A model generated the notes under the pieces. That model was not told where the DNA came from, searched no databases, and saw nothing but the letters and a program-made list of their open reading frames with translations. Of a DNA stretch of 61,980 bases, positions 21,481-60,217 are shown piece after piece. The stretch is from an uncultured Bacteroidia bacterium (lineage in GTDB: Bacteria; Bacteroidota; Bacteroidia; Bacteroidales; F082), in NCBI GenBank assembly GCA_902769815.1, contig CACXQO010000002.1, positions 1 to 61,980 on the forward strand, in the 5' to 3' direction. A program made the position numbers and the translations under genes. Within the stretch, counting starts at the first letter, position 1, and every line of letters begins with the position of its first letter.

Positions 21481-21518
21481 ACAAGTATTGTCTTTCTTGT
21501 TTTGATGGAACAGGGGGG

Positions 21519-22016
21519 TTAAATCGAACGTTTTATCGTAGGCTCCACGAAGAATACCACTTCTTTATTGTAAGGTTCCTCACAAATACCACTGTCGATG
21601 TCTCCTGTTACAAAAATAGAGACCAAATGCTTTGACTGAACCTTTTTGGTGTGTTGTTGTTTGATACCCGCAGGAATGAGTTTAACCGATACATTGACAT
21701 TTTTGAGTTGTGGAGCGTAAATGGACAAATTCCGTTTGATGCTCTCTTGACATTCATTTTTGGTGATTTCGCGATGTGCTCTTTCGGCCAAAGTGCTGGT
21801 TTGACCGTTATTGAAAGTATTGTATTGGATATTGACATACTCGTAATTCCAATACTCAAAACCAAACTCTGGATCGGCAGAGCAACTACCACGTGGGGTA
21901 TAAGCAATCAATTCAATTAGATTGTTGAGCATAGTCCTCAGCGATTTCAAATCGCGTTTCGGTTGGATGCTCAATAGATTGTCGTCAAAGTCTATCGGTG
22001 TGCTGATATAATTCAT
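21519..22016 (-). CDS. tssE: T6SS baseplate wedge protein TssE (GPW/gp25-like)
   Basis: 165 aa. LRTMLNNLIELIAYTPRGSCSADPEFGFEYWNYEY resembles the gp25 signature (NL..L..T..G.R...P.FG). Confidence 0.7.
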   Translation of the reverse strand: MNYISTPIDFDDNLLSIQPKRDLKSLRTMLNNLIELIAYTPRGSCSADPEFGFEYWNYEYVNIQYNTFNNGQTSTLAERAHREITKNECQESIKRNLSIYAPQLKNVNVSVKLIPAGIKQQHTKKVQSKHLVSIFVTGDIDSGICEEPYNKEVVFFVEPTIKRSI

Positions 22017-22022
22017 CGCATA

Positions 22023-23255: not shown

Positions 23256-23261
23256 GATGTT

Positions 23262-24140: not shown

Positions 24141-24149
24141 AGTTCAAAG

Positions 24150-29381: not shown

Positions 29382-29384
29382 CTG

Positions 29385-30569: not shown

Positions 30570-31627
30570 TTCTGTGAATTGTAGTATTTCGTGATTCTGT
30601 CGTAGTAATCAATAATTCCGTCCTTATATTTGTTCTGTTTTTTCCATTCAGCTGCATGGCTCCTGCATGTTTTGTCAGTGCAACATTTATACATGGCTTT
30701 AACTTGCAGCATTTCTTCCTTGGTGAGTTCCTTTTTGGGATAGACTTTTTCCTGATACAAGTCATCAAATGCATCATAGATTTCCTCCAATGTCAGCTTG
30801 CAATATTTACAGTAATGGTTGAAAGTGTGTTCGTCAGGATTACCACAGTCGGCTTCTTTAAACTCGATGTCGTCGAGTTGTTGCTTCAATTCATTGTATT
30901 TTCTGTATTTGAAGCTTTTTGCTGGCCATTGTTGCAATTTCAAATTGATAGCAAGGCGGAGGTCACTCACCTCATTCTTATAAGGCTGTTCCCTTTCCTC
31001 CAACGAGGGTTTGTGCTTCGGGTTGTTGCAGAATGTCAGGTGTGATATGACCTCAGCAATGGAGTCGCACGACTTCTTTATGGCAGGATAGCCCTCATCA
31101 GGTGTAAGTTCAACGGAGATGATAAGTTTTTCAACATGCTTCTCCATCAATGCCGCTTTCTTGGAGCATTTCTTTATAGCCATATAGAAAGGCAGCTTGA
31201 TTTCGAGGGTCTCATCTTCTGTCATTTGCAGATGACTGATTCGATAGTTGGAGCTATTGGGAGCCAGTCCCACCACATCTCTGCCCAACTGCTCACAGTA
31301 GTCGGTGTAACGCGGTTTCTTCACGGGATAGTTCCAATCATAGACAACGCGGGGATTCTTAAGACCACGCAGTTGCTTTTCATCAAAAGAACGTCCAAAC
31401 AGAAAGAGCATATTGTTGGAGACCTCATTCGGATTTATCACTTCCACCATGATGTCCACCCTTCCTTGGGCATCCGGCTCACCCATAGTGACATTGATAT
31501 TGACATACCCTAATTCAAGGCTCTTTTGATTGTCGTCCTCATTGAGCACAATTTTGTATTCGCCATCAGCAAAGACAGAAAGTGCAGTAAGTAGGGTTAG
31601 CAGTATGGTAAAAATGGTTTTCCTCAT
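30566..31627 (-). CDS. Secreted protein of unknown function with a Cys-rich C-terminus
   Basis: Signal peptide MRKTIFTILLTLLTALSVFA. C-terminal CGNPDEHTFNHYCKYCK...YKCCTDKTCRSH. 4-nt overlaps with both neighbours. Confidence 0.6.
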   Translation of the reverse strand: MRKTIFTILLTLLTALSVFADGEYKIVLNEDDNQKSLELGYVNINVTMGEPDAQGRVDIMVEVINPNEVSNNMLFLFGRSFDEKQLRGLKNPRVVYDWNYPVKKPRYTDYCEQLGRDVVGLAPNSSNYRISHLQMTEDETLEIKLPFYMAIKKCSKKAALMEKHVEKLIISVELTPDEGYPAIKKSCDSIAEVISHLTFCNNPKHKPSLEEREQPYKNEVSDLRLAINLKLQQWPAKSFKYRKYNELKQQLDDIEFKEADCGNPDEHTFNHYCKYCKLTLEEIYDAFDDLYQEKVYPKKELTKEEMLQVKAMYKCCTDKTCRSHAAEWKKQNKYKDGIIDYYDRITKYYNSQK

Positions 31628-32289
31628 ATTACAAGTTTTTTGGGCAGTGTCTTTTTGGGCTTGGACGTATCTTGCTGTTCAATGACAGGCTCTTGGGGAT
31701 GTGGCTTGGGTTTGTCGGCTTCGACCTGTGCAAAGTGTGTCCAGCCATTTGGTTCAGCTTCTTCGCGTACCCATTCCGCTACATTCTGGTCTTCAGGATA
31801 AGGATAGGTGTTGGCAGCGTGGTAGAGCTTGTACTTCAGGTAACGCTCCACACGCAGAATAAGGTCTTTCAAGGAGGCCATCACGCCCATCTCCTTGATG
31901 GTGAGGCAGACATGACCCTTGAAACTGCCTGAATAGCGGATGTTGGGATGCCATACATTGGTAAGGAAAGTAAATATAGGATTACCATCAGCCGACGGGT
32001 AGTTGTTGGGCAGCACTATGCTCATTTTATGCAAAGTACCGAATACTGGCTTACGTGGTATGGTGGAGCCTTCCACACCGATGATAGACTTGACGCGATA
32101 CCAGATTTCGTATTCGGTGGGAATACCCAAGCTGTTCTTCTTGCGGATGATATAAGAAATGGAAGGCTCGCGGGGATTCGCTTCCTTGCGCTTGGCGCAG
32201 AGGGTGTCGATATCCTTCCACTCAATCCAGAGGCGGGCGTTGCGCCCTGTTAGCTCTTTTTGGTTGAAGTTATTTATTATTTCATTCAT
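31624..32289 (-). CDS. E2-like ubiquitin-conjugating enzyme (UBC fold)
   Basis: LPNNYPSADGNPIFTFLTNVWHPNIRYSGSFKGHVCLTIKE: HPN motif with the catalytic Cys at canonical UBC spacing. Likely start MNEIINNF at 32289. Confidence 0.85.
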   Translation of the reverse strand: MNEIINNFNQKELTGRNARLWIEWKDIDTLCAKRKEANPREPSISYIIRKKNSLGIPTEYEIWYRVKSIIGVEGSTIPRKPVFGTLHKMSIVLPNNYPSADGNPIFTFLTNVWHPNIRYSGSFKGHVCLTIKEMGVMASLKDLILRVERYLKYKLYHAANTYPYPEDQNVAEWVREEAEPNGWTHFAQVEADKPKPHPQEPVIEQQDTSKPKKTLPKKLVI

Positions 32290-32309
32290 AGCTGATATTA
32301 TTATGGGAT

Positions 32310-32636
32310 TCAACCCGCGATGGGAACCGAAACAAGGTGCAGGTGGTCGCCTGGACGGATGCCATAGTCCATGAGGCATTGCTCGCGACCGTTCTCATCC
32401 TCAAATTCCAGGATTTCCGACTCGCCACCTTCTTCCATCACCTGACCCAACAGATACTTCACGGGATTGCCGCCGCCATCTATCTTAGGCAGCTCAAATA
32501 CCTGCACAATGCTGTTGATTTGGTCGCGGATGGTCTTGTTGGGGTCGTTAACTTTCACTTCCACTTCCTCATACGAAGTGTTGTCGATAGTCAAATGAAT
32601 GATGAATTCCTCATCGAATACTTGTTCGTTTTCCAT
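32310..32636 (-). CDS. Ubiquitin-like beta-grasp protein (YukD/EsaB-like) ending in Gly
   Basis: 108 aa. ...CLMDYGIRPGDHLHLVSVPIAG-stop. The C-terminal Gly codon (GGT) was verified on the DNA immediately before the TGA. Confidence 0.65.
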   Translation of the reverse strand: MENEQVFDEEFIIHLTIDNTSYEEVEVKVNDPNKTIRDQINSIVQVFELPKIDGGGNPVKYLLGQVMEEGGESEILEFEDENGREQCLMDYGIRPGDHLHLVSVPIAG

Positions 32637-40918: not shown

Positions 40919-42976
40919 TTAATTCACTTTTACGATACCAGCCTTGATGTCAATCTTGGTGCTGGCATTAAGCGCCATCTCCTTATCAGCTTTGGCGTGG
41001 TGGGTCTTTGAGTATTCAAGCAGCTGGTCTTTGGCTTCTTCACGGATGTTCTCTGCCGTTATCTGCAACTTGTGGGCAATCTGCTCGTCCTTGTTGTCGT
41101 CTACCTTGATGAACTGGTTTTCACTCACGGTTAACGAATCATTACGATCGATGGTAGTATTGCGGTCGTTACCAGCATGTTCACGGATGTCATTGTCGGC
41201 GGTGCGCTGCATGTCGTGAGAGGCTGCAAGGAACATATCGTTATCGGCGGTTTCTGAAATGTCGTGGTCTGCTGTGGCAGTGATGTCATGACCTGCATGC
41301 ATGATGATGTCGTTTTTGGCATACAACTCAATATTTCCAGTCGATTCCAGTTTGATGAGTTTTTGATCGGTGGAGAAGGTCAGGATATAATTTTCCTTTT
41401 TATTATCGTAAATGCGGATGTAGCCGTTCTCCCCTTCATCATGTATTTCTATAGTATGTCCGTTACGGGTACGGATGGCTTTAATCTGGTTGTTGCTGTT
41501 GTTGTCAGGGAGCCAAGCTGCATCTGGGTTGCCTACTCCATTATATAAGGTGCCTTTAACATAAGGCCGCTCGGCATTACCACCCTCGAAATCTATCATA
41601 ACCTCCTCCCCTATTTCTGGGATGAAACTGAAGCCTTTGCCACCACCAGCGTAAGGTTGGGCGATACGGAGCCAAGGGGTCATCATGTTTTCATCCGACT
41701 GTGCCTGCCAATCGAACTGCACACGAATACGTCCCAAGTCCATCGGATCTTCGTTGTCGGTCACTTTGGCACGGCAAGAGGGGGCTACAGGATAAACATC
41801 ACTGTTGGCGTAAGGCGGATAGTCACATGCCGCTGAGATGCCAACGAAATGGTTGCTGTAGGTCTCGTCAGACGAGAAGGTATGTGTGATTTCCGTGATA
41901 AGGATTTCCTCTTGGTCTACATCGCTTTTGGCATTGGTACTGTCATCTGAGATGAAGTTGTCGACAATGACTAAAGTTGCTCCTATTTTTAACTTTGAGC
42001 AATAGGTATCCCCCGAATAGGTAAGCATTCCCGCTTTTTCACCTTGGGCCTGTGTTTTGGTCGACACGTTGAGTATAGTCTCACGCCCGTCTTGGTCTGC
42101 AAAGCCTCCGGAATGGAGATTTTGGAGCGTGGGCTTAGTAAAACTGTTTTGAGAGGCTTCGAATACGCTGTCACCTAAAGTGTTGAACGGCGTTTGCATC
42201 TGTTCAAGACCTTCTTTGCAAGTGGCATCGTAGGCATTGTAGGATGAGGTAATATGGCTAAAGGCCACATGTTTCATCTTTAATTCGACATTATAGGACG
42301 GAATGTCTTTGCTTGGATAATTGAGTTTCAGGACATCTTGATCTTGATTGACCAAGTTGCCAAACACCATTTGTTCACCATCGTTGTATAGCCATTCTCC
42401 ATATCGGCGGGCGAGCCGTTGCAAGAACTGGTAGTCTGTTTCGTTGTATTGCACGCAATAGGCGATGGTGTCGGTGAACCTTGCATCAACAATGGCTTCG
42501 ATACTGTTGTCATCATCGGTTTCTATAACATTGTTGACAATATCGTTGAGGGTCTTTTCCTCAAACGACTTGCAGTTGGGATTGTCATCGAGCAAGGCTT
42601 CCTTGCTCCTCGCTTCCACGTTGACGATGTATTGGGTTCCTTTCCTACTTCCCGAAGCCGACATGATGATGCCACGAAAACTAATTTCGGATGTCTTCTC
42701 ATTGTTGGTATTGAGCGAAAGGTTCTCAATATTGTCTGTATCTAACGAAAGGGTGATTTCCTTTCCTATGATTTGGCTACACAAGGTGAAACAGGCCTCT
42801 TTATCATCTTCCTTGGGGCCTTTGTGCATATTGAAACACAATGTGTTATAAGACAAAAGGCTTTGATGAAGGGTGAAATGGTCAAGACGCCATGTCTCGC
42901 CGTCAATAGTAAGGTTAAAACCAGACGACTTGGCACCATCAATGGTGACCGTTATGTTTTTTACTGAGATTGACAT
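40919..42976 (-). CDS. vgrG: T6SS spike protein VgrG (TssI)
   Basis: RIRVQFDWQ, PWLRIAQPYAGGGKGFSFIPEIGEEVMIDFEGGNAERPYVKGTLYNG (gp5 OB-fold), and a C-terminal HD/ND-rich beta-helix repeat region. Confidence 0.9.
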   Translation of the reverse strand: MSISVKNITVTIDGAKSSGFNLTIDGETWRLDHFTLHQSLLSYNTLCFNMHKGPKEDDKEACFTLCSQIIGKEITLSLDTDNIENLSLNTNNEKTSEISFRGIIMSASGSRKGTQYIVNVEARSKEALLDDNPNCKSFEEKTLNDIVNNVIETDDDNSIEAIVDARFTDTIAYCVQYNETDYQFLQRLARRYGEWLYNDGEQMVFGNLVNQDQDVLKLNYPSKDIPSYNVELKMKHVAFSHITSSYNAYDATCKEGLEQMQTPFNTLGDSVFEASQNSFTKPTLQNLHSGGFADQDGRETILNVSTKTQAQGEKAGMLTYSGDTYCSKLKIGATLVIVDNFISDDSTNAKSDVDQEEILITEITHTFSSDETYSNHFVGISAACDYPPYANSDVYPVAPSCRAKVTDNEDPMDLGRIRVQFDWQAQSDENMMTPWLRIAQPYAGGGKGFSFIPEIGEEVMIDFEGGNAERPYVKGTLYNGVGNPDAAWLPDNNSNNQIKAIRTRNGHTIEIHDEGENGYIRIYDNKKENYILTFSTDQKLIKLESTGNIELYAKNDIIMHAGHDITATADHDISETADNDMFLAASHDMQRTADNDIREHAGNDRNTTIDRNDSLTVSENQFIKVDDNKDEQIAHKLQITAENIREEAKDQLLEYSKTHHAKADKEMALNASTKIDIKAGIVKVN

Positions 42977-42979: not shown

Positions 42980-43387
42980 TTAGGTCCATTCGTTTGTGAA
43001 TAAGACTCGGTCGCGCTTACCGATACGTATGATTTGAGCACTGATGGTGATGGTTGAATTCATCAATTTGCTGTCAGTGTTGTTGAAATTGTCTTTGAGC
43101 TCAATACAATAAGCATTCTCAAATTCCAGTGTTTTATAATACGGTTTGTTGTCGTTGGAATAGACGGTGAAGATGAAAACCCCAGATTGAACCTGAGTTT
43201 TGTTGAACATCCATTTGTAGAAAAAGAGGTCGTTATCATCAGTGGAAGGAGTCACAAAGGTGATTTTGCCACCTTGTGGACGTGAGACCGGCTTGCCTGT
43301 GTCGTCGATGGCTTGACGAAAATCGTAGGTGCATTCCAAGATGTTATATTCCTTGGAGTTTATGCTTAGTTTCGCTTGAATTGCCAT
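42980..43387 (-). CDS. Hcp/TssD tube protein paralogue 4 (most divergent)
   Basis: 135 aa. ECTYDFRQAIDDTGKPVSRPQGGKITF...FTNEWT parallels the other three TssD copies. Confidence 0.7.
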   Translation of the reverse strand: MAIQAKLSINSKEYNILECTYDFRQAIDDTGKPVSRPQGGKITFVTPSTDDNDLFFYKWMFNKTQVQSGVFIFTVYSNDNKPYYKTLEFENAYCIELKDNFNNTDSKLMNSTITISAQIIRIGKRDRVLFTNEWT

Positions 43388-43460
43388 GATTCAAATATGT
43401 TTATGTTAATAACTATGGTATAGCAGTAGCGTTCAAACCACAGTCATGCTATGATATCTA

Positions 43461-43853
43461 TTAAGCCCAGTCGTTGGTGAAATTAACAGGACCATTCTTG
43501 ATTTCACGGCATGACAAGATAATTTCTTCGTAGTGTCCCACATTGTCTTCCCACATCTCAACGAAATTGACACAAAAGGCATCGGTGAATTCGATTTTCT
43601 TCATTAGGCTGTTTGTCACGGTCTCGTGGAATTCAATGACGCCATGCATGGCGAGGTTGGGGTGAACCATCCAGTTAAAAAGGTCGGGATTGCCATCGTT
43701 CAAGGCCTTGACGCGAATCGTGATGTTACCTCCCCTCGGAATGCCGCTGGTCTGTCCTTCAATGGTGATGGCTTGGTTGAATGAATAAGTGACTTTTAAG
43801 ACCTCGCGTTCAGTGAGGCCGTCAACTTTCAATGTTACAGGTGTTTTTGCCAT
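43461..43853 (-). CDS. Hcp/TssD tube protein paralogue 3
   Basis: 130 aa. MAKTPVTLKVDG...VTYSFNQAITIEGQTSGIPRGGNITIRVKALNDG...FTNDWA. Roughly half identical by eye to 47169-47561. Confidence 0.85.
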   Translation of the reverse strand: MAKTPVTLKVDGLTEREVLKVTYSFNQAITIEGQTSGIPRGGNITIRVKALNDGNPDLFNWMVHPNLAMHGVIEFHETVTNSLMKKIEFTDAFCVNFVEMWEDNVGHYEEIILSCREIKNGPVNFTNDWA

Positions 43854-43890: not shown

Positions 43891-45672
43891 TTATTTAGAT
43901 TGCCCTTCTACCGAAGTGCTGGCACTCTGTTTTTTATCATTAGCTTCAAGCCTGATGACAAGATTCTTTGCAGCATAATATGGCGTGATGACAATCTCAA
44001 CAGTGACAATCTTTTTCCCTGGGTCTTGAGTGGGTTCGCCAAGCTTGTAATCGGAATATAAGAACTGGTAACCTCGATAATGGTCAAGGAAGGCATTGAT
44101 TTTGGTTTTCAGCTTGTCTGGTGACGTATAAGGATCCCAAGTCACGATGGCGATTTCGTGCATATAGTTCATTATAATTTTGTTCATCCAATCCAACACA
44201 CGAACAATAGGATACTCCTGCAAGCTGGAAGATGCGCCATTATATAACGTATGGTTGGAGAACGCGTATATACGCCCTTCGTTTTCAATCATGGGAACGA
44301 CACCTTTGTCAACAAGATTTGCAATTTCAGCTTTAAGCAACTTGAGACGAGTGCCTTTCACGCCATTCAACAAGCCGTAATCCTTACCTACCACACCTTG
44401 GGCTATGGAAACTTCCCTCGTATTGGCCATGCGTCCAGCAAGGGCTCCTGAACTCGGAATGTAAACATCGTCGTTTTCATTAGCCAATTCTGACCTCTTT
44501 CGACCGAGAAGATAATTACAAGTAATGACCACATTGGACAAAAATAAATCATTCCCTTGCAGGTTGGCTTTGCCTAACTCGTCTTCTAAATCCATAAAAT
44601 TTAGACAGTCCATGAAGTCAGTAATCATCAAGACTTTGTTATTGTGTGCCGTTTTTGCCCAATCTCTTAAAACAACTGCATCACCAAAATAACCCGGTAT
44701 CACAAACAGGCTATAGCTGTTCTTTAGGCTCAACACGTCATAATGCTTTTTCAATTCGTTTTGAACGGCAAGGGTGTCAGCCGAATTGGATAATGGCAGA
44801 TTCTCCTTGCTCACGTTGATTAAAGTGAGGCATTGAGTGCTATCATGGCCTGCATTGGCGAAAAAGGTTTCTAATGTACGGTAGGTGACCTCCAACGACT
44901 TGGTGTCTTCGTGGATTTGCAACAAATTGCTTTGCAGGTTGTACTCCGCTTCATTACGTTGTTCTATGCATGTTTTTACCAACTCGTCGAAGTCCTGTTT
45001 TCCTGTTTCAAGGATTGAAGCCCAAAGAAGGAGGTCATTCATGAGCTTTTTACGCGCACCAGCATAATACGATTCGCTTAAAAAGATGTCTCTTGCGGCC
45101 CTACAGGCAGGATCTATAGCCTCAATATGCCCAATGAGACCTTTAAGTATCAGAAAGTCTTCTTCTGGAATTGGATTCTCCGAAGCCTTTTTTTGTGACA
45201 GTTCGGTAATCAACGATGCAATGGAGTTTTTCAGACTGGTACAAGCTCCCCCGTCCATCAGCCTATTGCGAAGTGCCTTGTTTTTTTCAATTTGGTGGAT
45301 GAAGTCGTTGCAGAGGTCAATCTTGTGTCTCAAAGCCTTAAGAAAATCGCTTCGTTTAATAAGCTGCTCGTCTTCAAAATCGTCCAAGGAGTAAAATTGG
45401 AAGAGTTCAACGTCCCCATTAATAAGTTGGACTTTTATGGCTGGTTTGAAATAGTCGAATACACATTCCATGTCCACGTCTTGTCCGTTCTCGGATACAT
45501 CGTATATCATAAGACCTACATCCGAAAATTCATCGACATATAGCGTCCTGTTTTGAGGAAACTCTTTTATGCTCTCAAACTCGTCTTTTTCATCAAAAAA
45601 TCTCGAATTCATAGTATTTTTCTCCTCAAACAAATAGACATGACGAATTACTGTATCAAAGACAATTGACAT
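43891..45672 (-). CDS. Sheath protein: apparent TssB-TssC fusion (divergent second sheath module)
   Basis: Residues ~70-165 align by eye with the separate TssB (VFDYFKPAIKV vs VFEHFKPKVDV; IEKNKALRNRLMD vs IEQNRKLRDILKD). Residues ~200-593 align with TssC (YPIVRVLDWMNKIIMNYMHE vs YQIVRVFDWVKKVLMNYVHD). An alternative start at 45612 (MNSRFF) removes the 25-nt overlap. Confidence 0.75.
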   Translation of the reverse strand: MSIVFDTVIRHVYLFEEKNTMNSRFFDEKDEFESIKEFPQNRTLYVDEFSDVGLMIYDVSENGQDVDMECVFDYFKPAIKVQLINGDVELFQFYSLDDFEDEQLIKRSDFLKALRHKIDLCNDFIHQIEKNKALRNRLMDGGACTSLKNSIASLITELSQKKASENPIPEEDFLILKGLIGHIEAIDPACRAARDIFLSESYYAGARKKLMNDLLLWASILETGKQDFDELVKTCIEQRNEAEYNLQSNLLQIHEDTKSLEVTYRTLETFFANAGHDSTQCLTLINVSKENLPLSNSADTLAVQNELKKHYDVLSLKNSYSLFVIPGYFGDAVVLRDWAKTAHNNKVLMITDFMDCLNFMDLEDELGKANLQGNDLFLSNVVITCNYLLGRKRSELANENDDVYIPSSGALAGRMANTREVSIAQGVVGKDYGLLNGVKGTRLKLLKAEIANLVDKGVVPMIENEGRIYAFSNHTLYNGASSSLQEYPIVRVLDWMNKIIMNYMHEIAIVTWDPYTSPDKLKTKINAFLDHYRGYQFLYSDYKLGEPTQDPGKKIVTVEIVITPYYAAKNLVIRLEANDKKQSASTSVEGQSK

Positions 45673-46304
45673 GCAGGTACAAAAGCTATGGCAACAGCTG
45701 CCACACCGTCTAATTGAACCACCACCTTTTTGTTCTTGTTGATTCTTTTTATTACCCCTTCCACTCCAGAAAAGAAGCCATCGACAACCTTCACCCGCTG
45801 GCCGACTTTTTTGATAAACTCGTTGTTATCGAGGAATATCACACGATCGTCTTGCACGGATGCCACCCGCATAAAGTTGTTCATCTGTACATCGGGAACC
45901 TGAAGAATCTCGCTCTTAGCATCAGTAGAAAGAGAGCGTTTCATTATGTAGCGCATCGGGGCAAAATCGCCACGACACATCTTCAGGTTTGTTAGATATT
46001 CTTGAGTGGACCTGACGAAAACCAAATTATGAATAGCAGGTAAGAGCACACGCTTTTTACCGCCCGATTTTGTTTCCACCAGTTCATAGTGCATGGGGAG
46101 AAAACACTCTACACCCAACTCATCAAGCAAAGCCTTGATTTTCATTTCCCGATTATAAGTGACACGCATTGGAAACCAATGCAACACAGAATCCTCTTCA
46201 ATTGATTGGTTTGCAGTATGTTGATGCGATTTTGCAATAGAGAGGGACATCACCGTTTTTGACGTGATTCCAATAATATTTTCTTTGCTTAATAATCTGT
46301 TCAT
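45648..46304 (-). CDS. UpxY-family (NusG-like) transcription antiterminator
   Basis: WFPMRVTYNREMKIKALLDELGVECFLPMH...LLPAIHNLVFVRS (NGN domain) and C-terminal KOW-like VKVVDGFFSGVEGVIKRINKNKKVVVQL. Confidence 0.8.
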   Translation of the reverse strand: MNRLLSKENIIGITSKTVMSLSIAKSHQHTANQSIEEDSVLHWFPMRVTYNREMKIKALLDELGVECFLPMHYELVETKSGGKKRVLLPAIHNLVFVRSTQEYLTNLKMCRGDFAPMRYIMKRSLSTDAKSEILQVPDVQMNNFMRVASVQDDRVIFLDNNEFIKKVGQRVKVVDGFFSGVEGVIKRINKNKKVVVQLDGVAAVAIAFVPACQLSLIQ

Positions 46305-46378: not shown

Positions 46379-46386
46379 CAAAGGTA
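46379..46386 (-). promoter_or_regulatory. Bacteroidota -7 promoter box (TACCTTTG on the minus strand) upstream of the NusG-like gene
   Basis: Plus-strand caaaggta, about 75 nt upstream of the ATG at 46304. Confidence 0.45.
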
Positions 46387-46605
46387 AGATATTTTGAAAA
46401 ACAAACAATATGGAATATTAAAAAGATGAGGCTTTTATTCCATTCCTATTGTATTCCCCTCGAATGCCTGCTTAAGCAGTCGATAGAAACAAGTGTTTTT
46501 GTCATAATTCTCTTCGAGGAGGAAACACCTTGCTTTCAGGAAGAGCAGCAGTTGCGAGGGCGGTGACCACATCCAATATCGGTACTTGATGGCTCCACGC
46601 TGTTG

Positions 46606-46737: not shown

Positions 46738-47136
46738 TTATTTCCAAGGGTTCTCGAAGGACACGGGGCCGTTTTCGAGTTTCTGGCATACAATCTCTAT
46801 CTCCTCGAAGTGCTCCTGGCCGTCTTCCCATTTCTCCTTATAGTGGACGCAGTAGCAACCTGTGCCCTTCAGTTCCTTCATCTTCTTTCCGTCAACTGTG
46901 TTGAAGTAGGTGACGGTGAAGTCGCGTGGGTCGGTGGGTGCCAACATCCATTGCAACAGTTGATTGTTGCCATCGTTCATGGCTTTCACACGGATCGTGA
47001 CCTTACCGCCACGGGGAATGCCGGTAATCTGGCCTTCACGGTCAGTGGTCTGGTCGAACTTATAGTCTATCATGATGACCTCACGGGTCTCGAAATCTTT
47101 AACGGCTAATTGTACCGGTGTTACATTCACTGCCAT
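46738..47136 (-). CDS. Hcp/TssD tube protein paralogue 2
   Basis: 132 aa. IDYKFDQTTDREGQITGIPRGGKVTIRVKAMNDG...FENPWK. Confidence 0.85.
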   Translation of the reverse strand: MAVNVTPVQLAVKDFETREVIMIDYKFDQTTDREGQITGIPRGGKVTIRVKAMNDGNNQLLQWMLAPTDPRDFTVTYFNTVDGKKMKELKGTGCYCVHYKEKWEDGQEHFEEIEIVCQKLENGPVSFENPWK

Positions 47137-47168
47137 AACTTGTATAGTTTAATTGTTAAACACTCATT

Positions 47169-47561
47169 TTATGCCCAGTCGTTTTCATACACGACATTGC
47201 CAAACTCAATCTTCTTGCAGGTGATGACAATCTCCTCGTAGTGACCTTGTTTGTCTTCCCACTTCTCGTCGAAGTTGACGCAATAGCCATTGGTGAACTT
47301 GATGGTCTTCATATCCTTACCAGTCTTGGTCTCTTTAAAGGTGATGGTGCCGTTCTTGGGCAAGTTGCGTTCCACCATCCATGCCAAGAGGTCGGGAGTA
47401 CCGTCGTTGAGGGCTTTCACACGAACGGTGATTTTACCGCCACGGGGAATGCCAGACATCTGGCCTTCCACATCGGTGGCCTGGTCGAATTCGTAGGTTA
47501 CCATCAGGACTTCTCTTTCCTTGTAACCATCAATCTCAATTTTTACAGGTGTTTTTGCCAT
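47169..47561 (-). CDS. Hcp/TssD tube protein paralogue 1
   Basis: 130 aa. MAKTPVKIEIDG...VTYEFDQATDVEGQMSGIPRGGKITVRVKALNDG...YENDWA. Confidence 0.88.
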   Translation of the reverse strand: MAKTPVKIEIDGYKEREVLMVTYEFDQATDVEGQMSGIPRGGKITVRVKALNDGTPDLLAWMVERNLPKNGTITFKETKTGKDMKTIKFTNGYCVNFDEKWEDKQGHYEEIVITCKKIEFGNVVYENDWA

Positions 47562-47589
47562 AATATAAAATTTAAAGTTAAATGATGTA

Positions 47590-48960
47590 TTAGTTTTGTT
47601 CTTGTTCTAATGAGGCCACTTTGTCCTTATTGTCAGCGGCCACCTTGATGATGAAGTTCTTGGCGGCATAGAAGGGAGCCAAAGTGATGTCGCAAGTGAT
47701 TTGCTTTGTCCTGGGGTCTTGACGCGGCTCTTTAATCTCGTAATCTTTAAACAGTTTGCCGTAGCCCTTGTATTGGTTCAAGAAATCCTGTATCTTGGCC
47801 TTCAGATTCTTCGGGCTGTTGTAGGGATCCCAGCCCTCTAATACCACATCATGCACGTAGTTCATCAGTACTTTTTTCACCCAATCAAATACCCGTACGA
47901 TTTGATATTCCTTCATGGCATCAAGGTCGCCGTTGTAAAGGGTGTTGTTGTTATAAGCCATTACGCGGCCATCGCTGTAAACCATAGGGATGACCTGATT
48001 GTCCCACAGCGAAGCAATCTCCGACTTCAGCAAGTCGATCTCCACGCCTTTCACGCCGTCCAGTGTACCGTACTTCTTGCCGCCGGCAGCCTGTGCCATA
48101 TTGGCAGACTCATTATAGAGTTTGCCGCAAAGGGCTGCCGAGGGGGCAATGTAGAAGGCTTTTGTTTCTTCCTCGTTGGAAGAGAGTTTCTCAGCCTCGC
48201 GGCCAACAATCCAGTTAGCACACATCACCACGTTCATCAGTTCCTGGTCGCTGTCACGATAACCCTCGGTGTTGGCCTGCAGGTTATCGAAGTTGTACTC
48301 GTCAGCATGGTCGGTGAGCAGCATTACTTTATATTTAAATGCCATCTTGGCCCACTGTAACAGTTTCACCTTTTCGTTAAGTACGGCACCAGGGATGCAG
48401 ACAAGACTATATGCATCCTTTAAGCTCAGGCGGTCAAAGCCATCGCGGAGGATATCCTCCACCTTCTGAGCGAAACCAGAGTCAGGATCTGCGATGTCTT
48501 CCTTGTGAACATTGATGATGCGAAGGTTTTTCACCTTATCGGTGCCGCAGTTTTTAAAGAAGGAGTCAAGTTCGCGGTAGCTACGCTCCAAGTCTTGGGT
48601 AGCATAGAGAGCTTCTGTGATACCCTGTTTTAGCACGGCGGTATATTTGTCCTCTTCCTGTTTGCAGGCATCGGCATAGCCAGTAGCACCCTCAATGCCC
48701 TCTTGGTCAAGTAACTCAATCCAACGGGAGATCTCACGCTTCAGTCCTTCACGCTTGTTCTCGAAGCGTTTGTCTTTCAGGAACACTTCCTTTTGGGCTT
48801 TGCGTGAAGGATTCATGTTGTCGGCGTCAGGCATGAAGCCACGGATGGCGTTAAAGCCGCCAAACTGCGACAACATCTTGCTGACATCTTTACCTTGTTC
48901 TTGCAACTGGGCACTGGATTGTTCGATGGCCTGTGCTTTTTTCATTTCAGTTTCTGCCAT
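47590..48960 (-). CDS. tssC: T6SS sheath large subunit TssC (Bacteroidota type)
   Basis: 456 aa, immediately downstream of tssB. Size, position and similarity to the sheath paralogue at 43891-45672. Confidence 0.85.
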   Translation of the reverse strand: MAETEMKKAQAIEQSSAQLQEQGKDVSKMLSQFGGFNAIRGFMPDADNMNPSRKAQKEVFLKDKRFENKREGLKREISRWIELLDQEGIEGATGYADACKQEEDKYTAVLKQGITEALYATQDLERSYRELDSFFKNCGTDKVKNLRIINVHKEDIADPDSGFAQKVEDILRDGFDRLSLKDAYSLVCIPGAVLNEKVKLLQWAKMAFKYKVMLLTDHADEYNFDNLQANTEGYRDSDQELMNVVMCANWIVGREAEKLSSNEEETKAFYIAPSAALCGKLYNESANMAQAAGGKKYGTLDGVKGVEIDLLKSEIASLWDNQVIPMVYSDGRVMAYNNNTLYNGDLDAMKEYQIVRVFDWVKKVLMNYVHDVVLEGWDPYNSPKNLKAKIQDFLNQYKGYGKLFKDYEIKEPRQDPRTKQITCDITLAPFYAAKNFIIKVAADNKDKVASLEQEQN

Positions 48961-48980
48961 TGTATTAAGTGTTTGATTGT

Positions 48981-49445
48981 TTATGCATTATTCAGTTCGT
49001 CCAACATGGACTGCAGCATCTGTTTCAGTTCGTCGCGGCTGCCAACATCCTTTAGGATGTCACGCAGCTTGCGGTTCTGTTCGATGCTCTTGCGCACCTT
49101 CTGATTGGTCTCGATTTTCATCTTGACACCAGAAAGGAACTTGCTATTTTCCACTAAACGACCTTTGCCGCCATTGGCTTCGAAGTCGCGAAGTTCTCTA
49201 AAATTCAGCGTCTCGTCAACCGTACCACCTTCTTCATTGGTAAAGGTCACATCTACTTTCGGTTTAAAGTGCTCGAAAACACCGTTAATATTTTGGATAT
49301 TATCCTGCACAAATTCAGGATCGCCGGCTTCCACGTCTGTAGTGTACTGGTCAATAATGATGGTTTTGTTTTGGTCCAACAGGCTCACTTTCGCATTGCT
49401 CTCCTCATCTGGAGCATCCGAAATGAAGTTTTCTTTCATTGCCAT
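48981..49445 (-). CDS. tssB: T6SS sheath small subunit TssB
   Basis: 154 aa, acidic. Located between clpV and tssC. VFEHFKPKVDVTF...FRELRDFE pattern. Confidence 0.8.
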   Translation of the reverse strand: MAMKENFISDAPDEESNAKVSLLDQNKTIIIDQYTTDVEAGDPEFVQDNIQNINGVFEHFKPKVDVTFTNEEGGTVDETLNFRELRDFEANGGKGRLVENSKFLSGVKMKIETNQKVRKSIEQNRKLRDILKDVGSRDELKQMLQSMLDELNNA

Positions 49446-49470
49446 AATTTAGATGTTTTTAATTTTTACT

Positions 49471-51729
49471 TTATTGATTGTTAACTTTTAATCTTTCTTT
49501 AACCATTATTACTGGATTGCCGCTCTGGTCGATGTTTACCACAACGTGGTCGCCCGACTTTATTTTACCAGCAATCATCATCTTCGAAATAGGATGGCGT
49601 AACTCTTTGCGGATAATGCCGAGAATTGGACGCGCGCCATATTGCTGGTTGAAACCGCGCAAAGCAATGGCTTGTCTGGCTTCGGGAGACAGTTCCAGTG
49701 TGATGTCCTGTTCATTAAGTAGCTTCAGCAGTCCCTTCATATGAATGTCGAAGATAGCCGTAACCGTTTTTTCGGTTATAGGCGCGAAAGGCACTATTTC
49801 CGTCAAACGCGCCAAAAACTCGGGACGGAAATAGCTCTGCATGATGTCCATCAGCTCGTTATTTTCGGGTATCTCGCCATTATTGAACTTCGCCACAATG
49901 TCCTTGGCACCTATGTTAGATGTGAAGAGAATGAGAGAGTTGGAGAAATCACCCACACGCCCCAGACGGTCGTGCAACTTGCCTTCGTCCAAAATCTGCA
50001 AGAAGAGGTCAAACACAGATTTGTGTGCTTTTTCAATTTCATCGAAGAGCACCACACTATAAGGCGATTGACGAATTTTGTTCACCAACAGACCGCCCTC
50101 TTCGTAACCTACATAACCTGGAGGAGCTCCATAGAGCAGTGCCACAGAGTGTTCCTCCTTGAATTCAGACATATCGAAACGTAGCAAGGCACTCTCGTCA
50201 CCAAAGAGAAATTCGGCTAAAGCCTTGGAGAGTTCAGTCTTACCAGTACCCGTTGGTCCCAGAAAGAAGAACGAACCCATAGGCTGTCCCTTCTTATTGA
50301 GTCCCGAGCGAGCCTCAAAAACGGCGTCAAGCACCTTCTTCACAGCATGATCCTGACCAACGACACGTTTCTTCAGCTCTTCTTCGCCACCCATCAGACG
50401 CTCTCGCTCGCCCGTCTGCACCTTGCCAAGGGGAATACCCGTCTGCTTGGCGACGACGGCAGTGAGGTCGTCGGGCCGGAGGTCGGTATGTTTCTGTTCC
50501 TCGTTACCGAGGTCATTTTCCACCTTCACATGTGCCATAGTACGATCAATGAGGTCGATAGCCGAGGCGGGCAGAGACTTCTCGGTTAGGTAACGCTTGG
50601 CTAAGCGGATGGACTCATTCATCACTTCTTCATCCACCGTCAAGCCGTGGTACTCTTCGTAAGCTGGCATGATACCTTTCAGGATTTCCATCGTTTGGTC
50701 GGTGGTGGGTTCCTCGATGGAGATTTTCTCCAAATTGGAGACCATCTCCTTGTCAGTCTCAATATTTTTGGTGTAACCGTCGATACTTGATGTGCAAAGC
50801 AACTGCAAACGACCTTTGCTCAGTTCGTTCTTCAGAAGTGTCGAGCAACCAAAGAGCATACTTTGCTTGTCGAATAGCTTGTCAATCTTCTCAATGATGA
50901 GTACGGCGTTGGGTTGATTTTCCACCTCGTTAATGATATTCTTGAAGCGGTCCTCCACCTCGCCCTTGTATTGGGCGTCGCTTCCTAAAGCAGCCGTCTC
51001 TAACTCGTAGGCAACAGCACCACTGAGGAAACATGGTACATGGTCGGTAGCCAGTTCACGCACAAAACCATTCACTAGTGAAGTCTTGCCCACACCAGAC
51101 TCACCAGTGATGAGTAGGTTAGCTTTGGTTTTGCGCCCCATAATTTCATAGATGATGGAAATCTCATTTTCGAATCCGACGACATTGTCCAGATTGCCCG
51201 CTCGGGCAATGGCAGTCTTGTCAGTGCAGTATTTGGCAAGTGTGCCTTTACCTGTGGAAGGTGTGTTTTTCTTCAGTACGGTACTCTCCATGTAAGGAGC
51301 CTCCACGTTGGCCCCGCCCCCCATCTTGGCACTAATGTCCGATGGAGTCAACGGCAACGTCTTAAGCTGGTCGAAAGAAAAACCAACACCTGGTGTCACC
51401 AGCGAAGTAAGAATGCAGACTGGCGAAATCTCATCAAGGTTGAACTTCATCTTATAGTTCTCAGCCTCTTCCATAACCGCTACGCTTTCGTCGCTATACT
51501 CAAGGTCATGCATCGGACGGACAGCTTTGGGAGATAATTGCATCTGAACATCAGCCCAGTCTTGAAGATAGTAATAATCTTTGTCCAACTCAGTTTCAAT
51601 AAAGCGAACAAGCCCCGTTTCTTTATGAAGAACAGCTTTGAAAAGATGCGAAGGATAAATGGCATCACTGCAGTATTCCTCGGCAAAGGAACTGGCAATG
51701 GTTTTTATTTTTTCTATCATTTCGCTCAT
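49471..51729 (-). CDS. clpV: ClpV/TssH AAA+ ATPase (ClpB-like, two nucleotide-binding domains)
   Basis: Clp-N-like N-terminus. Walker A sites GESGVGKTS and GPTGTGKTE. VLFDEIEKAH (Walker B). 752 aa. Confidence 0.9.
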   Translation of the reverse strand: MSEMIEKIKTIASSFAEEYCSDAIYPSHLFKAVLHKETGLVRFIETELDKDYYYLQDWADVQMQLSPKAVRPMHDLEYSDESVAVMEEAENYKMKFNLDEISPVCILTSLVTPGVGFSFDQLKTLPLTPSDISAKMGGGANVEAPYMESTVLKKNTPSTGKGTLAKYCTDKTAIARAGNLDNVVGFENEISIIYEIMGRKTKANLLITGESGVGKTSLVNGFVRELATDHVPCFLSGAVAYELETAALGSDAQYKGEVEDRFKNIINEVENQPNAVLIIEKIDKLFDKQSMLFGCSTLLKNELSKGRLQLLCTSSIDGYTKNIETDKEMVSNLEKISIEEPTTDQTMEILKGIMPAYEEYHGLTVDEEVMNESIRLAKRYLTEKSLPASAIDLIDRTMAHVKVENDLGNEEQKHTDLRPDDLTAVVAKQTGIPLGKVQTGERERLMGGEEELKKRVVGQDHAVKKVLDAVFEARSGLNKKGQPMGSFFFLGPTGTGKTELSKALAEFLFGDESALLRFDMSEFKEEHSVALLYGAPPGYVGYEEGGLLVNKIRQSPYSVVLFDEIEKAHKSVFDLFLQILDEGKLHDRLGRVGDFSNSLILFTSNIGAKDIVAKFNNGEIPENNELMDIMQSYFRPEFLARLTEIVPFAPITEKTVTAIFDIHMKGLLKLLNEQDITLELSPEARQAIALRGFNQQYGARPILGIIRKELRHPISKMMIAGKIKSGDHVVVNIDQSGNPVIMVKERLKVNNQ

Positions 51730-51759: not shown

Positions 51760-51999
51760 TCACAGATTATTTGCCGCCAAAAGTACAAAAGAATTTGTAA
51801 ATAGCAAAAAAAATGATAAAAATCTGGTGCAACTATAATCATCAAATGTGTCCTCTATGAAGTTTATTAATCCTGCGGTCTTATGCATGAGAGCACTAAG
51901 CAAGTGAGCTGGTTCGATTTTGGGCAACTTGTTATCGTTGGCATACGATTGCAATATGTGTAATAAGTCAAAAGGAAGGTTATAGTTTGAAATACTTGT
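51760..51999 (-). pseudogene. Remnant of a second clpV 5' end (Clp-N-like fragment)
   Basis: LPKIEPAHLLSALMHKTAGLINFIEDTFDDY parallels DAIYPSHLFKAVLHKETGLVRFIETELDKDY of the intact ClpV. After that it runs into nonsense sequence and a stop. Confidence 0.5.
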
Positions 52000-52014
52000 C
52001 CGTATCAGTTGCGT

Positions 52015-52636
52015 TTATAAAAGTTTCAAACAATTTGCTGGAACAAAGGCAATGGCCACAGCTGCAACGCCTTCACTTTGTACCACTACACGCTTGTTTT
52101 TGTTGATTCGCTTAATGGTGCCCTCAATTCCTTCAAAAAACGTCAATGATTCTAGCAGGTCTGCCAATGTTGTTTCGAAATTAGTTGTAATCCAAAAACA
52201 TGACGCTGTCGTCTTATATGGATGCCTCACGCATGAAATTATTCATTTGCCCATCAGAAACGTGAATGATTTCCTTCTTTTCGTTAGGAGAAGCAGTCCA
52301 TTTCATGATATATCTCACGGGTGTAAAAGTCTATCTCGTCATCTTCAGCTGGGTCAAACACTCTTGTGTCGATCTAACGAAAATCAGATTATGAATGGCA
52401 GGCAGCAGCATACGCTTCCTCCCTCCATTTTTCGTTTCCACCACTTCCCAATGCATTGGCATAAAACTCTCAACACCCATCTCGTCAAGCAAAGCTTTGA
52501 TTTTCATTTCCCTATGATAAGTGATACGCATAGGAAACCAATGCACCAAGGCTTCTTTTCTAATTACTTGATTTACAGTGTCTTGTCTGGGGGGGGGGGG
52601 GGGGGGGGGGAAAAAATTGCGTGGTTTCATTTGCAT
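52015..52636 (-). pseudogene. Decayed UpxY/NusG-like antiterminator gene (paralogue of 45648-46304)
   Basis: VHWFPMRITYHREMKIKALLDEMGVESFMPMH...LLPAIHNLIFVRS, then an in-frame TAG (52331-52333), two in-frame TAA codons and one frameshift before ...EGIEGTIKRINKNKRVVVQ. The conserved 5' leader catattgcgctgatttccagctaca matches 46303-46326. Confidence 0.8.
52589..52610. repeat. Homopolymer: 22 consecutive G (C22 on the coding strand of the decayed NusG-like gene)
   Basis: Counted directly, and consistent with F + 7 x Pro in the ORF translation. Confidence 0.95.
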
Positions 52637-54512: not shown

Positions 54513-54638
54513 TTTTCGTATTCCTTATAAGGTTATAAGCAGGTGCAAAGATACAACAAAGGCAGAAATGTTGCAAGAAACAGAAAGATTATCGGTTCGT
54601 CTTGTTCATTCACCCAATGCTACTGCAATGGATAAACA

Positions 54639-54842: not shown

Positions 54843-54843
54843 A

Positions 54844-60196: not shown

Positions 60197-60217
60197 AATG
60201 AAAATGTGTGTGTTAGT

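What the first reader, a model, noticed from the sequence alone, without database searches (positions are those of the whole stretch)
43891..45672. Second sheath gene appears to be a natural TssB-TssC fusion
Seen: the locus has a canonical tssB (154 aa) plus tssC (456 aa) pair at 47590-49445. It also has a 593-aa (or 573-aa) ORF with no adjacent tssB.

The C-terminal ~390 aa of that ORF align by eye along their whole length with TssC:
- FLSESYYAGARKKLMNDLLLWASIL vs FLKDKRFENKREGLKREISRWIELL
- IPSSGALAGRM vs IAPSAALCGKL
- YPIVRVLDWMNKIIMNYMHE vs YQIVRVFDWVKKVLMNYVHD

Residues ~70-165 align with TssB:
- VFDYFKPAIKV vs VFEHFKPKVDV
- FYSLDDFEDEQLIKRSDFLKAL vs FRELRDFEANGGKGRLVENSKFLSGV
- IEKNKALRNRLMD vs IEQNRKLRDILKD

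The combined length of TssB and TssC (610 aa) is close to that of the fusion.

Established: T6SS sheaths are TssB/TssC heterodimers, whereas single-chain sheaths are typical of phage tails and other contractile injection systems.

Inference: this is a covalently fused sheath protomer, possibly building a distinct or mixed sheath with its own Hcp paralogues.
Basis: partly seen in the sequence, partly recalled or inferred. Interest (0 to 1): 0.85.

Follow-up and report, generated by a model that had tools for sequence, protein, structure and literature searches.

The report
Natural fused TssB–TssC T6SS sheath
This gene really does encode the two halves of the type VI secretion 'sheath' (TssB and TssC) as one conserved protein; it is the locus's own sheath gene, and the ordinary separate pair next to it, with the recycling ATPase ClpV, was imported from a different secretion system.

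Summary
**Observation:** confirmed. ORF 43891–45612 (−) most likely encodes 573 aa; the 593-aa start is not supported by homologues. It contains a complete TssB joined by a ~12-residue linker to TssC lacking its first ~30–40 residues.

**Homology:**
- TssB part: E=1e-13 to the local TssB, 44% identity (E=4e-29) to Bacteroides hominis TssB, profile–profile probability 100%.
- TssC part: Pfam TssC, E=7e-100.

**Not an artefact:** ~45 clusters (46–100% identity) from independent assemblies keep the single ORF, and dN/dS is 0.12–0.38 in all three regions.

**Reframing:**
- The fusion follows a UpxY-like antiterminator gene, where 76/76 canonical Bacteroidales loci have clpV–tssB–tssC.
- Five cassette-less lineages show only UpxY–fusion–hcp–hcp–vgrG.
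- The window's separate clpV–tssB–tssC–hcp–hcp is 77–84% identical to a common Prevotella-type T6SS, whereas its baseplate genes are only 24–27% identical to that system. It is an imported cassette.

**Wider pattern:** fusions arose repeatedly in T6SS^iii. Short forms delete the junction helices. The fusion is the fastest-evolving structural gene in its locus.

**Literature:** no description found.

**Inferred, untested:** a single-chain sheath that ClpV does not recycle.

**Verdict:** new variant of a known kind, moderately high interest.

The parts
43891..45612 (-). Fused tssB–tssC coding sequence, 573 aa (an alternative upstream ATG at 45672 would give 593 aa)
   Evidence: ORF list. Family alignment places the start at M21. 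Pfam TssC. Single ORF in about 45 homologous clusters.
45178..45585 (-). TssB-homologous part (residues ~10–145 of the 573-aa form), with motifs FPQNRTLYVD, DDFEDEQLI and IHQIEKNKALR
   Evidence: BLASTP to the local TssB, E=1e-13. 44% identity, E=4e-29, to B. hominis TssB. hhalign probability 100%, E=6.5e-55, 136 columns. Best PDB profile hits are TssB 9n4v_B and IglA 3j9o_A.
45157..45195 (-). Junction linker (about QKKASENPIPEED, residues 140–152) that replaces the tssB stop codon, the intergenic spacer and the first ~41 codons of tssC
   Evidence: Alignment with TssB+TssC of the closest unfused relative L096 shows a net loss of 32 residues. Alignment A4. dN/dS of the junction region is 0.17–0.22.
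43906..45156 (-). TssC-homologous part (residues 153–569)
   Evidence: BLASTP 37% identity, E=2e-101, to the local TssC. 50–54% identity to canonical Bacteroidales TssC. Foldseek top hits are TssC1 5n8n_B and IglB 3j9o_B.
45648..46304 (-). UpxY-family (NusG-like) antiterminator gene that heads the fusion's operon
   Evidence: NCBIfam NF033644, 144.6 bits against a cut-off of 100. Present directly upstream of the fusion in L001, L002, L004, L036, L037, L046, L047 and L049.
46379..46405 (-). Candidate Bacteroides-type promoter (TTTG, 15 nt, TAccTTTG) upstream of the UpxY gene
   Evidence: Read directly from the sequence. The consensus is from my own knowledge. This is a pattern match only.
42980..43853 (-). 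Two hcp genes native to the fusion module (130 aa and 135 aa)
   Evidence: Pfam TssD. Conserved after the fusion in every fusion locus whose contig extends past the gene.
40919..42976 (-). vgrG of the native module
   Evidence: tblastn: 70% identity to B. hominis VgrG and 73–96% in the other fusion loci. Its L001 orthologue carries the Pfam domains Phage_GPD and Phage_base_V.
46738..51729 (-). Imported cassette: clpV (49471–51729), tssB (48981–49445), tssC (47590–48960), hcp (47169–47561) and hcp (46738–47136)
   Evidence: 77–84% identical to the Prevotella-type locus L038, whereas the window's TssK, TssE and TssF are only 24–27% identical to L038. The cassette is absent from L002, L004, L036, L037 and L046, and sits differently in L006.
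51835..52636 (-). Scars upstream of the cassette: a UpxY pseudogene (52018–52636; in-frame stop plus frameshift) and a ClpV N-terminal remnant (51835–51957)
   Evidence: tblastn and ORF list.
19603..32379 (-). Rest of the native T6SS core: E2-like p251, p353, p394, p541, p805 (TssR-like, by size), a ThiF-like gene, p292, TssK, TssE and a probable TssF. It contains no sheath or ClpV gene.
   Evidence: Pfam and NCBIfam. Collinear with B. hominis L012 and with L043.

Best explanation
**What it is.** The gene encodes a genuine single-chain T6SS^iii sheath subunit. A whole TssB is joined through a ~12-residue linker to a TssC that has lost its first ~30–40 residues.

**How it arose (inferred from comparisons).** An ancestral Bacteroidales locus had the order UpxY–clpV–tssB–tssC–hcp–hcp–vgrG. 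The fusion arose there by loss of the tssB stop codon, the short spacer and the start of tssC. clpV disappeared from that position in the same lineage.

**Shown here.**
- Both halves are homologous to TssB and TssC.
- The single ORF is conserved and under purifying selection.
- It occupies the tssB–tssC position in the locus.
- The neighbouring separate clpV–tssB–tssC–hcp–hcp set comes from a different (Prevotella-type) T6SS.

**Inferred, not shown.**
- The protein polymerises around the native Hcp tube as the working sheath of this T6SS.
- The join lies in the surface-exposed helical module formed by the TssB C-terminal helices and the TssC N-terminal helices. In VipA/VipB this is domain 3, which carries the ClpV docking site.
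- This sheath is therefore not disassembled by a dedicated ClpV. It may be recycled by another route or not at all.
- In the window's genome the imported ClpV-serviced split sheath and tube set probably forms a separate tail module rather than a mixed polymer.
For: - **Homology of both halves:** (probability 100%, E=6.5e-55; 44% identity, E=4e-29). PDB profile hits to TssB and IglA.
- **Fold:** full-length AlphaFold2 model with pLDDT 77.8 and pTM 0.73; the TssB-like strands are confident only in the context of the TssC body. Foldseek ranks T6SS large sheath subunits first.
- **Real and functional:** about 45 fused clusters at 46–100% identity from ENA, JGI, Logan and NCBI. No stop codons, and dN/dS of 0.12–0.38 in the TssB part, the junction and the TssC body.
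- **Native position:** UpxY–fusion–hcp–hcp–vgrG follows housekeeping genes in L002, L004 and L036, with no clpV, tssB or tssC upstream in L037 or L046 either. In canonical loci, 76/76 have clpV directly upstream of a separate tssB and 47/70 have a UpxY-like gene before clpV.
- **Closest relatives:** the window's VgrG is 70% and p251 is 81% identical to the canonical B. hominis locus.
- **Cassette is foreign:** 77–84% identity to L038 for the cassette against 24–27% for the baseplate genes. Its position varies and it carries UpxY and ClpV scars.
- **Junction:** the linker replaces TssC residues 1 to ~41. Short forms remove the whole junction helical module at least twice within the clade.
Against: - No experiment shows that the protein assembles or contracts.
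- I could not read the far end of any cassette-less fusion contig or a whole genome, so a clpV or a separate tssB/tssC elsewhere in those genomes is not excluded.
- The fusion clade is monophyletic. 'Fusion together with clpV loss' is therefore essentially one evolutionary event, not a replicated association.
- The fusion evolves faster than every neighbouring structural gene. dN/dS is 0.30 against 0.00–0.14 (window vs L001). dN is ~0.28 against 0.02–0.13 between cassette-less loci. That is unusual for a sole, essential sheath.
- ClpV docking on the TssC N-terminus is known only for T6SS^i (my own knowledge), not for T6SS^iii.
- The structural match of the isolated N-terminal part to TssB chains is weak (best E=0.34, probability 0.97).
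Confidence: 0.72

Rival explanations
1. The fusion is a specialised or minor sheath paralogue, for example a baseplate-proximal or distal layer, a nucleator or a modulator. It would work together with a conventional split TssB/TssC sheath encoded nearby or elsewhere, much as extracellular contractile injection systems use several sheath paralogues.
For: - Fused and separate sheath genes sit side by side in the window, L001 and L006, and independently in the distant locus L041: fusion–hcp–159 aa–tssC–hcp.
- The fusion evolves faster than all other structural genes.
- Contractile injection systems with several sheath paralogues are established (my own knowledge).
Against: - At least five cassette-less lineages show only the fusion at the canonical tssB–tssC position.
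- The separate pair in the window belongs to another T6SS lineage: 37% identity to the fusion, with baseplate genes only 24–27% identical to that lineage.
- The far end of this locus architecture carries no sheath gene.
Confidence: 0.17
2. The fusion is a decaying relic. After the clpV–tssB–tssC–hcp cassette arrived, the old sheath gene became redundant and is drifting towards loss of function.
For: dN/dS of the fusion is 0.30 (window vs L001), against 0.04–0.08 for the cassette's TssB and TssC. The fusion is 86% identical between these two genomes, while its neighbours are 94–100% identical.
Against: - dN/dS remains well below 1 in all three regions, and no orthologue carries a stop or frameshift.
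- The same fast rate is seen between cassette-less loci, where no replacement is visible.
- The handshake-type N- and C-terminal motifs are among the best-conserved columns.
Confidence: 0.07
3. The single ORF is an assembly or sequencing artefact: a lost stop codon or a frameshift that merged two adjacent genes.
For: In canonical loci tssB and tssC are only ~24 nt apart and share a frame in 32 of 100 cases, so one base error could merge them. Some other 'fusions' are singletons on short contigs, for example P0361.
Against: The window's architecture recurs in about 45 clusters at 46–100% identity from independent projects. They share the same shortened junction, which is a ~32-residue deletion rather than a read-through, and the junction is under purifying selection.
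Confidence: 0.01

Closest known systems
TssB/TssC (VipA/VipB, IglA/IglB) heterodimeric T6SS sheath, in particular the T6SS^iii TssB and TssC of Bacteroidales (GA1–3-type loci)
   Same: - Both parts are clear homologues: TssB 40–44% and TssC 50–54% identity to canonical Bacteroidales proteins.
- Same domain order as the gene order.
- Same locus position and the same partners: Hcp, VgrG, TssE, TssF, TssK and TssN–R-like genes.
- Sheath fold.
   Different: - One polypeptide instead of two.
- The first ~30–40 residues of TssC are missing.
- No clpV of the same lineage beside it.
- It evolves several-fold faster than neighbouring structural genes.
- Relatives exist that delete the whole junction helical module.
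Single-chain contractile sheaths of phage tails, R-type pyocins, extracellular contractile injection systems and the Amoebophilus T6SS^iv
   Same: One chain per protomer. A shared core fold: Foldseek probability 1.0 to T4, pyocin, AFP/PVC and Streptomyces CIS sheaths. These systems have no dedicated ClpV (my own knowledge).
   Different: By sequence it is a secondarily re-joined TssB + TssC nested within T6SS^iii, not a member of the phage or CIS sheath families. Pfam reports only TssC, and the locus is a full T6SS^iii.
Francisella T6SS^ii (IglA/IglB sheath recycled by the general chaperone ClpB)
   Same: A T6SS whose locus has no dedicated ClpV, which is a precedent for ClpV-independent sheath turnover (my own knowledge). 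IglA and IglB are among the best structure and profile hits.
   Different: Francisella keeps two separate sheath proteins. No link between the fusion and ClpB has been tested.

Membership tests
T6SS^iii TssC (Pfam PF17541) | Match to the family profile above the curated cut-off | tested here: met
   335.3 bits against a cut-off of 25, residues 171–581 (593-aa numbering), profile positions 12–419 of 430.
TssB / VipA small sheath subunit | Homology to bona fide TssB proteins over their full length | tested here: met
   hhalign against an alignment of 18 separate TssBs gives probability 100%, E=6.5e-55, covering profile positions 14–150 of 153. BLASTP gives 44% identity, E=4e-29, to B. hominis TssB and E=1e-13 to the local TssB.
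TssB / VipA small sheath subunit | Match to Pfam T6SS_VipA (PF05591) | tested here: inconclusive
   No hit for the fusion at E≤0.1. The genuine local TssB also fails this model (17.5 bits against a cut-off of 24), so the model does not cover T6SS^iii TssB. A PDB profile search does rank TssB (9n4v_B, E=0.002) and IglA (E=0.015) first.
Contractile sheath proteins (T6SS, phage, CIS) | Sheath core fold | tested here: met
   Foldseek hits to 5n8n_B TssC1 (E=9e-7), 3j9o_B IglB, 5urx_1B and 9n4v_A, then pyocin, T4 and CIS sheaths, all with probability 1.0 and target-normalised TM-scores mostly 0.3–0.57. The isolated N-terminal part gives only weak TssB or VipA hits.
Canonical T6SS sheath (TssB·TssC heterodimer) | Two separate polypeptides encoded by adjacent genes | tested here: not met
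   A single uninterrupted ORF in the window and in about 45 homologous clusters.
Canonical T6SS sheath (TssB·TssC heterodimer) | Encoded in a T6SS locus together with Hcp, VgrG and baseplate genes | tested here: met
   Two Hcp, VgrG, a PAAR-like DUF4280 protein, TssK, TssE and a probable TssF lie downstream in the same orientation.
Canonical T6SS sheath (TssB·TssC heterodimer) | Cognate ClpV (TssH) encoded alongside and docking on the TssC N-terminus | tested here: not met
   No clpV of the native lineage lies at the canonical position in any fusion locus, against 76/76 canonical loci. TssC residues 1 to ~41 are replaced by the linker. Docking itself cannot be tested with these tools.
Canonical T6SS sheath (TssB·TssC heterodimer) | Polymerises around an Hcp tube and contracts | not testable with these tools
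   Needs expression, imaging or secretion assays.
Phage / CIS single-chain sheath families | Membership of those sequence families | tested here: not met
   Pfam reports only TssC. The phylogeny nests the protein beside the Bacteroidales TssC clade.

The most novel reading that the evidence does not exclude
Fused TssBC proteins mark a previously unrecognised, recurrently evolving class of T6SS^iii with a single-chain sheath that ClpV does not recycle. Its short forms have shed the whole surface helical module and so converge on phage-like minimal sheaths. In the window's genome, one baseplate and membrane complex would serve two alternative tail modules: a native fused, ClpV-less module and an imported split, ClpV-recycled module, each with its own Hcp pair. 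That would give two firing or recycling modes.
Probability: 0.25. Interest if true: 0.8.

Novelty: new variant of a known kind. Interest (0 to 1): 0.62.

Why it matters
- **The split is not obligatory.** The TssB/TssC split and ClpV-driven recycling are treated as hallmarks that separate T6SS sheaths from phage-type single-chain sheaths. A conserved natural re-fusion shows that the split can be undone. Here it comes with loss of the TssC N-terminus, loss of the neighbouring clpV and, in short forms, loss of the whole junction module.
- **It offers a natural experiment.** The family can be used to ask what the split and 'domain 3' are for, and how sheaths are turned over without ClpV.
- **It affects annotation.** These proteins are currently named plain 'TssC' or 'hypothetical'. 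Screens that require ClpV or a separate TssB will miss or misclassify such loci.
- **It shows modular exchange.** The window is an example of a whole tube–sheath–ClpV module moving between T6SS lineages.

Tried and rejected
- **Far end of cassette-less loci.** A homologue search with p805 and a look-up of P0306 gave a locus of identical architecture with no sheath or ClpV gene. It has no sequence overlap with any fusion contig, so the 'sole sheath' question stays open.
- **Look-up restriction.** Proteins from fetched loci cannot be looked up, so I could not walk along the contigs.
- **Full-length family profile against PDB sequences:** no hits at E≤0.001.
- **NCBIfam:** no model hits the fusion, the local TssB or the local TssC.
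- **Foldseek with the isolated N-terminal model:** no significant hits, only TssB and VipA chains at probability 0.4–0.97.
- **Genome scan with the N-terminal profile:** it mostly returned ordinary adjacent tssB + tssC loci joined by tblastn. Only 2 of 30 were fusions. I reused the rest as canonical controls.
- **Sigma-70 promoter and terminator scan:** uninformative for Bacteroidota.
- **Recombination as the cause of the fusion's divergence between the window and L001:** rejected, because dS is similar to that of neighbouring genes and the excess lies in dN.
- **Literature:** five full-text searches and four papers checked gave no description of a natural TssB–TssC fusion. I did not open the 'fused TssB' hits and only presume they are engineered tag fusions.
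Full report
**1.

- The window contains ORF 43891..45672 (−, 593 aa). It also contains a separate tssB (48981..49445, 154 aa) and tssC (47590..48960, 456 aa).
- BLASTP aligns fusion residues 173–589 with TssC residues 36–454 (37% identity, E=2e-101). It aligns residues 40–159 with TssB residues 25–152 (32% identity, E=1e-13).
- Pfam finds TssC (PF17541) at residues 171–581, E=7e-100.
- In a 23-member family alignment most homologues start at the window's M21. The likely product is therefore 573 aa (43891..45612), which removes the overlap with the upstream gene.

**2. The N-terminal part is a complete TssB**

- It aligns end to end with separate TssB proteins of ordinary Bacteroidales loci, from the FPQNRTLYVDQF motif to their C-termini.
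- It is 44% identical (E=4e-29) to the Bacteroides hominis TssB.
- Profile–profile comparison with 18 separate TssBs gives probability 100%, E=6.5e-55, over 136 columns.
- A profile search of PDB sequences ranks a T6SS small sheath subunit (9n4v_B, E=0.002) and IglA (3j9o_A, E=0.015) first.
- Pfam's VipA model misses it. That model also fails on the genuine local TssB (17.5 bits against a cut-off of 24), so the miss is uninformative.

**3. The junction**

I aligned the fusion with TssB(151)+TssC(460) of a closest unfused relative, L096. TssB is retained to its end. An ~11–13-residue linker (…QKKASENPIPEE…) replaces TssC residues 1 to ~41, a net loss of 32 residues. The TssB part is 40% identical and the TssC part 50% identical.

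**4. It is not an artefact or a pseudogene**

- About 45 clusters (90%-identity level) of 567–594 aa cover at least 93% of the query at 46–100% identity. They come from ENA, JGI, Logan and NCBI assemblies.
- Orthologues in L001, L002, L004, L006 and L037 have no stop codons.
- dN/dS is 0.12–0.38 separately in the TssB part, the junction and the TssC body.

**5. Structure**

- An AlphaFold2 model of the 573-aa protein (55-sequence alignment) has pLDDT 77.8 and pTM 0.73, with the TssB-like region at 74–95.
- Foldseek against the PDB puts T6SS large sheath subunits first (TssC1 5n8n_B E=9e-7, IglB 3j9o_B, M. xanthus 5urx_1B, 9n4v_A). Single-chain phage, pyocin and CIS sheaths follow.
- Modelled alone, residues 1–219 lose confidence in residues 1–45. 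This suggests that the TssB-like N-terminal strands pack on the TssC body.
- The Foldseek hits of that fragment are weak (E≥0.34). The five hits with probability ≥0.4 are TssB or VipA chains. I count this as consistent, not decisive.

**6. Which sheath gene is native**

- The gene upstream of the fusion is a UpxY-family antiterminator, with a Bacteroides-type promoter motif before it (pattern match only).
- In L002/L003/L007, L004/L005, L036, L037/L048, L046, L047 and L049 the order is UpxY–fusion–hcp–hcp–vgrG as far as each contig reaches (L005 and L047 end just after the fusion). No clpV, tssB or tssC lies in the available upstream sequence. In L002, L004 and L036 that sequence is about 9 kb of housekeeping genes before the UpxY gene.
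- In 100 canonical loci, clpV lies directly upstream of a separate tssB in 76 of 76 cases with enough sequence. A UpxY-like gene precedes clpV in 47 of 70.
- The window's VgrG (70%), DUF4280 protein (57%) and p251 (81%) resemble the canonical B. hominis locus L012.
- The window's ClpV, TssB, TssC and two Hcp are 77–84% identical to a very common Prevotella-type T6SS (L038). The window's TssK, TssE and TssF are only 24–27% identical to that system.
- The cassette lies upstream of the UpxY gene in the window and L001, and between UpxY and the fusion in L006. It is accompanied by a UpxY pseudogene and a ClpV remnant in the window, and by a UpxY fragment in L006.

The fusion is therefore the native sheath gene, and the split pair with ClpV is an imported module.

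**7. Recurrence**

- An exhaustive profile search of 1.84 billion representatives found about 20 mutually distant (<50% identity) fused architectures:
  - the window's family;
  - fusions with canonical-type bodies that keep the TssC N-terminus (P0361, P0362);
  - a Prevotella-type fusion (P0368);
  - a distant clade made only of fusions (P0372, P0393, P0476);
  - two proteins of ~1,054 aa with an LRR region followed by TssB–TssC (P0383, P0391);
  - many short forms of 454–549 aa.
- Short forms join the first ~100 TssB residues directly to the TssC body. They drop the TssB C-terminal helix and the TssC N-terminal helices.
- A rough NJ tree places the window's family as one clade beside the canonical TssCs, with short forms arising at least twice inside it.
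- In canonical loci tssB and tssC are ~24 nt apart and share a frame in 32% of cases, so fusions form easily. Some singleton fusions may be errors.

**8. An unexpected property**

The fusion is the fastest-evolving structural gene of its locus.

| Comparison | Fusion | Neighbouring genes |
|---|---|---|
| Window vs L001 (dN/dS) | 0.30 | TssB 0.04, TssC 0.08, Hcp 0.00–0.07, VgrG 0.04, ClpV 0.14 |
| Window vs L006 (dN/dS) | 0.16 | 0.02–0.12 |
| Cassette-less pairs L004/L036 and L002/L037 (dN) | ~0.28 | Hcp and VgrG 0.02–0.13 |

**9. Mechanism (inferred)**

- In VipA/VipB the TssB C-terminal helices and the TssC N-terminal helices form the surface domain that carries the ClpV docking helix (my own knowledge of T6SS^i).
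- Three observations suggest a sheath that no longer depends on a dedicated ClpV: the covalent join there, the loss of the TssC N-terminus, and the lack of a same-lineage clpV. Recurrent deletion of the whole module in short forms points the same way.
- The relaxed constraint on the sequence fits this reading.
- In the window, the two sheath sets are only 32–37% identical and each has its own Hcp pair. They most likely form separate tails.
- None of this has been tested. Because the fusion clade is monophyletic, the link between fusion and clpV loss amounts to one evolutionary event.

**10. Literature and annotation**

Full-text searches and checks of the key Bacteroidales T6SS papers and a 2026 review found no natural TssB–TssC fusion. 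NCBI names one such protein simply 'TssC'.

**11. Limits**

I could not see the far end of a cassette-less fusion contig or any whole genome. A split sheath or a ClpV elsewhere in those genomes remains possible. The tree is a quick distance tree, and the promoter is a pattern match only.

Noticed in passing
window 51835-52636 (− strand): Upstream of the intact clpV lie a decayed second UpxY-like gene (52018–52636; in-frame stop near 52331 and a frameshift near 52140; 63–76% identical to the intact copy) and a ~40-residue remnant of a ClpV N-terminus (51835–51957). L006 shows the mirror image: a UpxY fragment before the fusion and an intact UpxY before clpV.
   Followed up: partly
P0045–P0049, P0369, P0376, P0394, P0426, P0427, P0452, P0457, P0480; locus L036:10001-11458: Short-form TssB–TssC fusions (454–549 aa) lack the TssB C-terminal helix and the TssC N-terminal helices. 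In P0047 the Pfam TssC match starts at profile position 65. L036 carries a short form at the same LpxC/LpxD-flanked site where L004 carries a long form.
   Followed up: partly
P0383 and P0391; locus L042:4770-7937: Two proteins of ~1,054 aa, less than 50% identical to each other, combine an N-terminal leucine-rich-repeat region (Pfam LRR at 333–419) with a complete TssB–TssC fusion (TssC at 625–1053). In L042 the gene follows a MoxR-like AAA gene and a VWA gene.
   Followed up: no
L041:10001-14341: A distant Bacteroidota lineage also places a fused gene (608 aa) beside a separate set, in the order fusion–hcp–159 aa–tssC (420 aa)–hcp. No ClpV lies within ±10 kb.
   Followed up: no
window 24150-25517, 31624-32379 and 25360-27777 (− strand): A ThiF-like E1 adenylyltransferase (Pfam E=8e-52), a weak E2-like UQ_con match (26.3 bits against a cut-off of 27) and an 805-aa protein with weak FHA and RING hits sit inside the T6SS core. 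They are conserved in other Bacteroidales T6SS loci: ThiF is 80% identical in L043 and 42% in the Prevotella-type L038, and p251 is 81% identical in B. hominis. This hints at a ubiquitin-like conjugation module as a regular T6SS^iii component.
   Followed up: partly
window 38659-40896 (− strand): A 745-aa protein with fibronectin-like repeats and a T9SS C-terminal sorting domain (Por_Secre_tail) lies directly after vgrG. Equivalents follow vgrG, directly or a few genes downstream, in most other fusion loci with downstream sequence, so a T9SS-sorted protein sits inside a T6SS operon.
   Followed up: no
window 15483-19597 (− strand): The far end of the locus carries a glucosaminidase–LysM protein, a Ser/Thr protein kinase and a WG-repeat protein. 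The same trio ends the locus in L043. In L037 the glucosaminidase gene instead sits directly upstream of the UpxY gene.
   Followed up: partly
window 53301-60256: A Schlafen/AlbA_2-domain protein, a protein with a weak P4-family primase C-terminal match and one with a weak tyrosine-recombinase (XerD-like) match flank the cassette side of the T6SS locus. This suggests the border of a mobile element. L001 has different mobile-element-like genes at the same place.
   Followed up: no
loci L008–L035 and L050–L123: In 100 canonical Bacteroidales loci, tssB and tssC are separated by a median of ~24 nt and share a reading frame in 32 cases (for example L008). Loss of a single stop codon would fuse them.
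   Followed up: yes
window 43891-45612 compared with L001, L006, L002, L004, L036 and L037: The fused sheath gene is the fastest-evolving structural gene of its locus. It is 86% identical between the window and L001, while its neighbours are 94–100% identical. This is the opposite of the usual strong conservation of TssC.
   Followed up: yes
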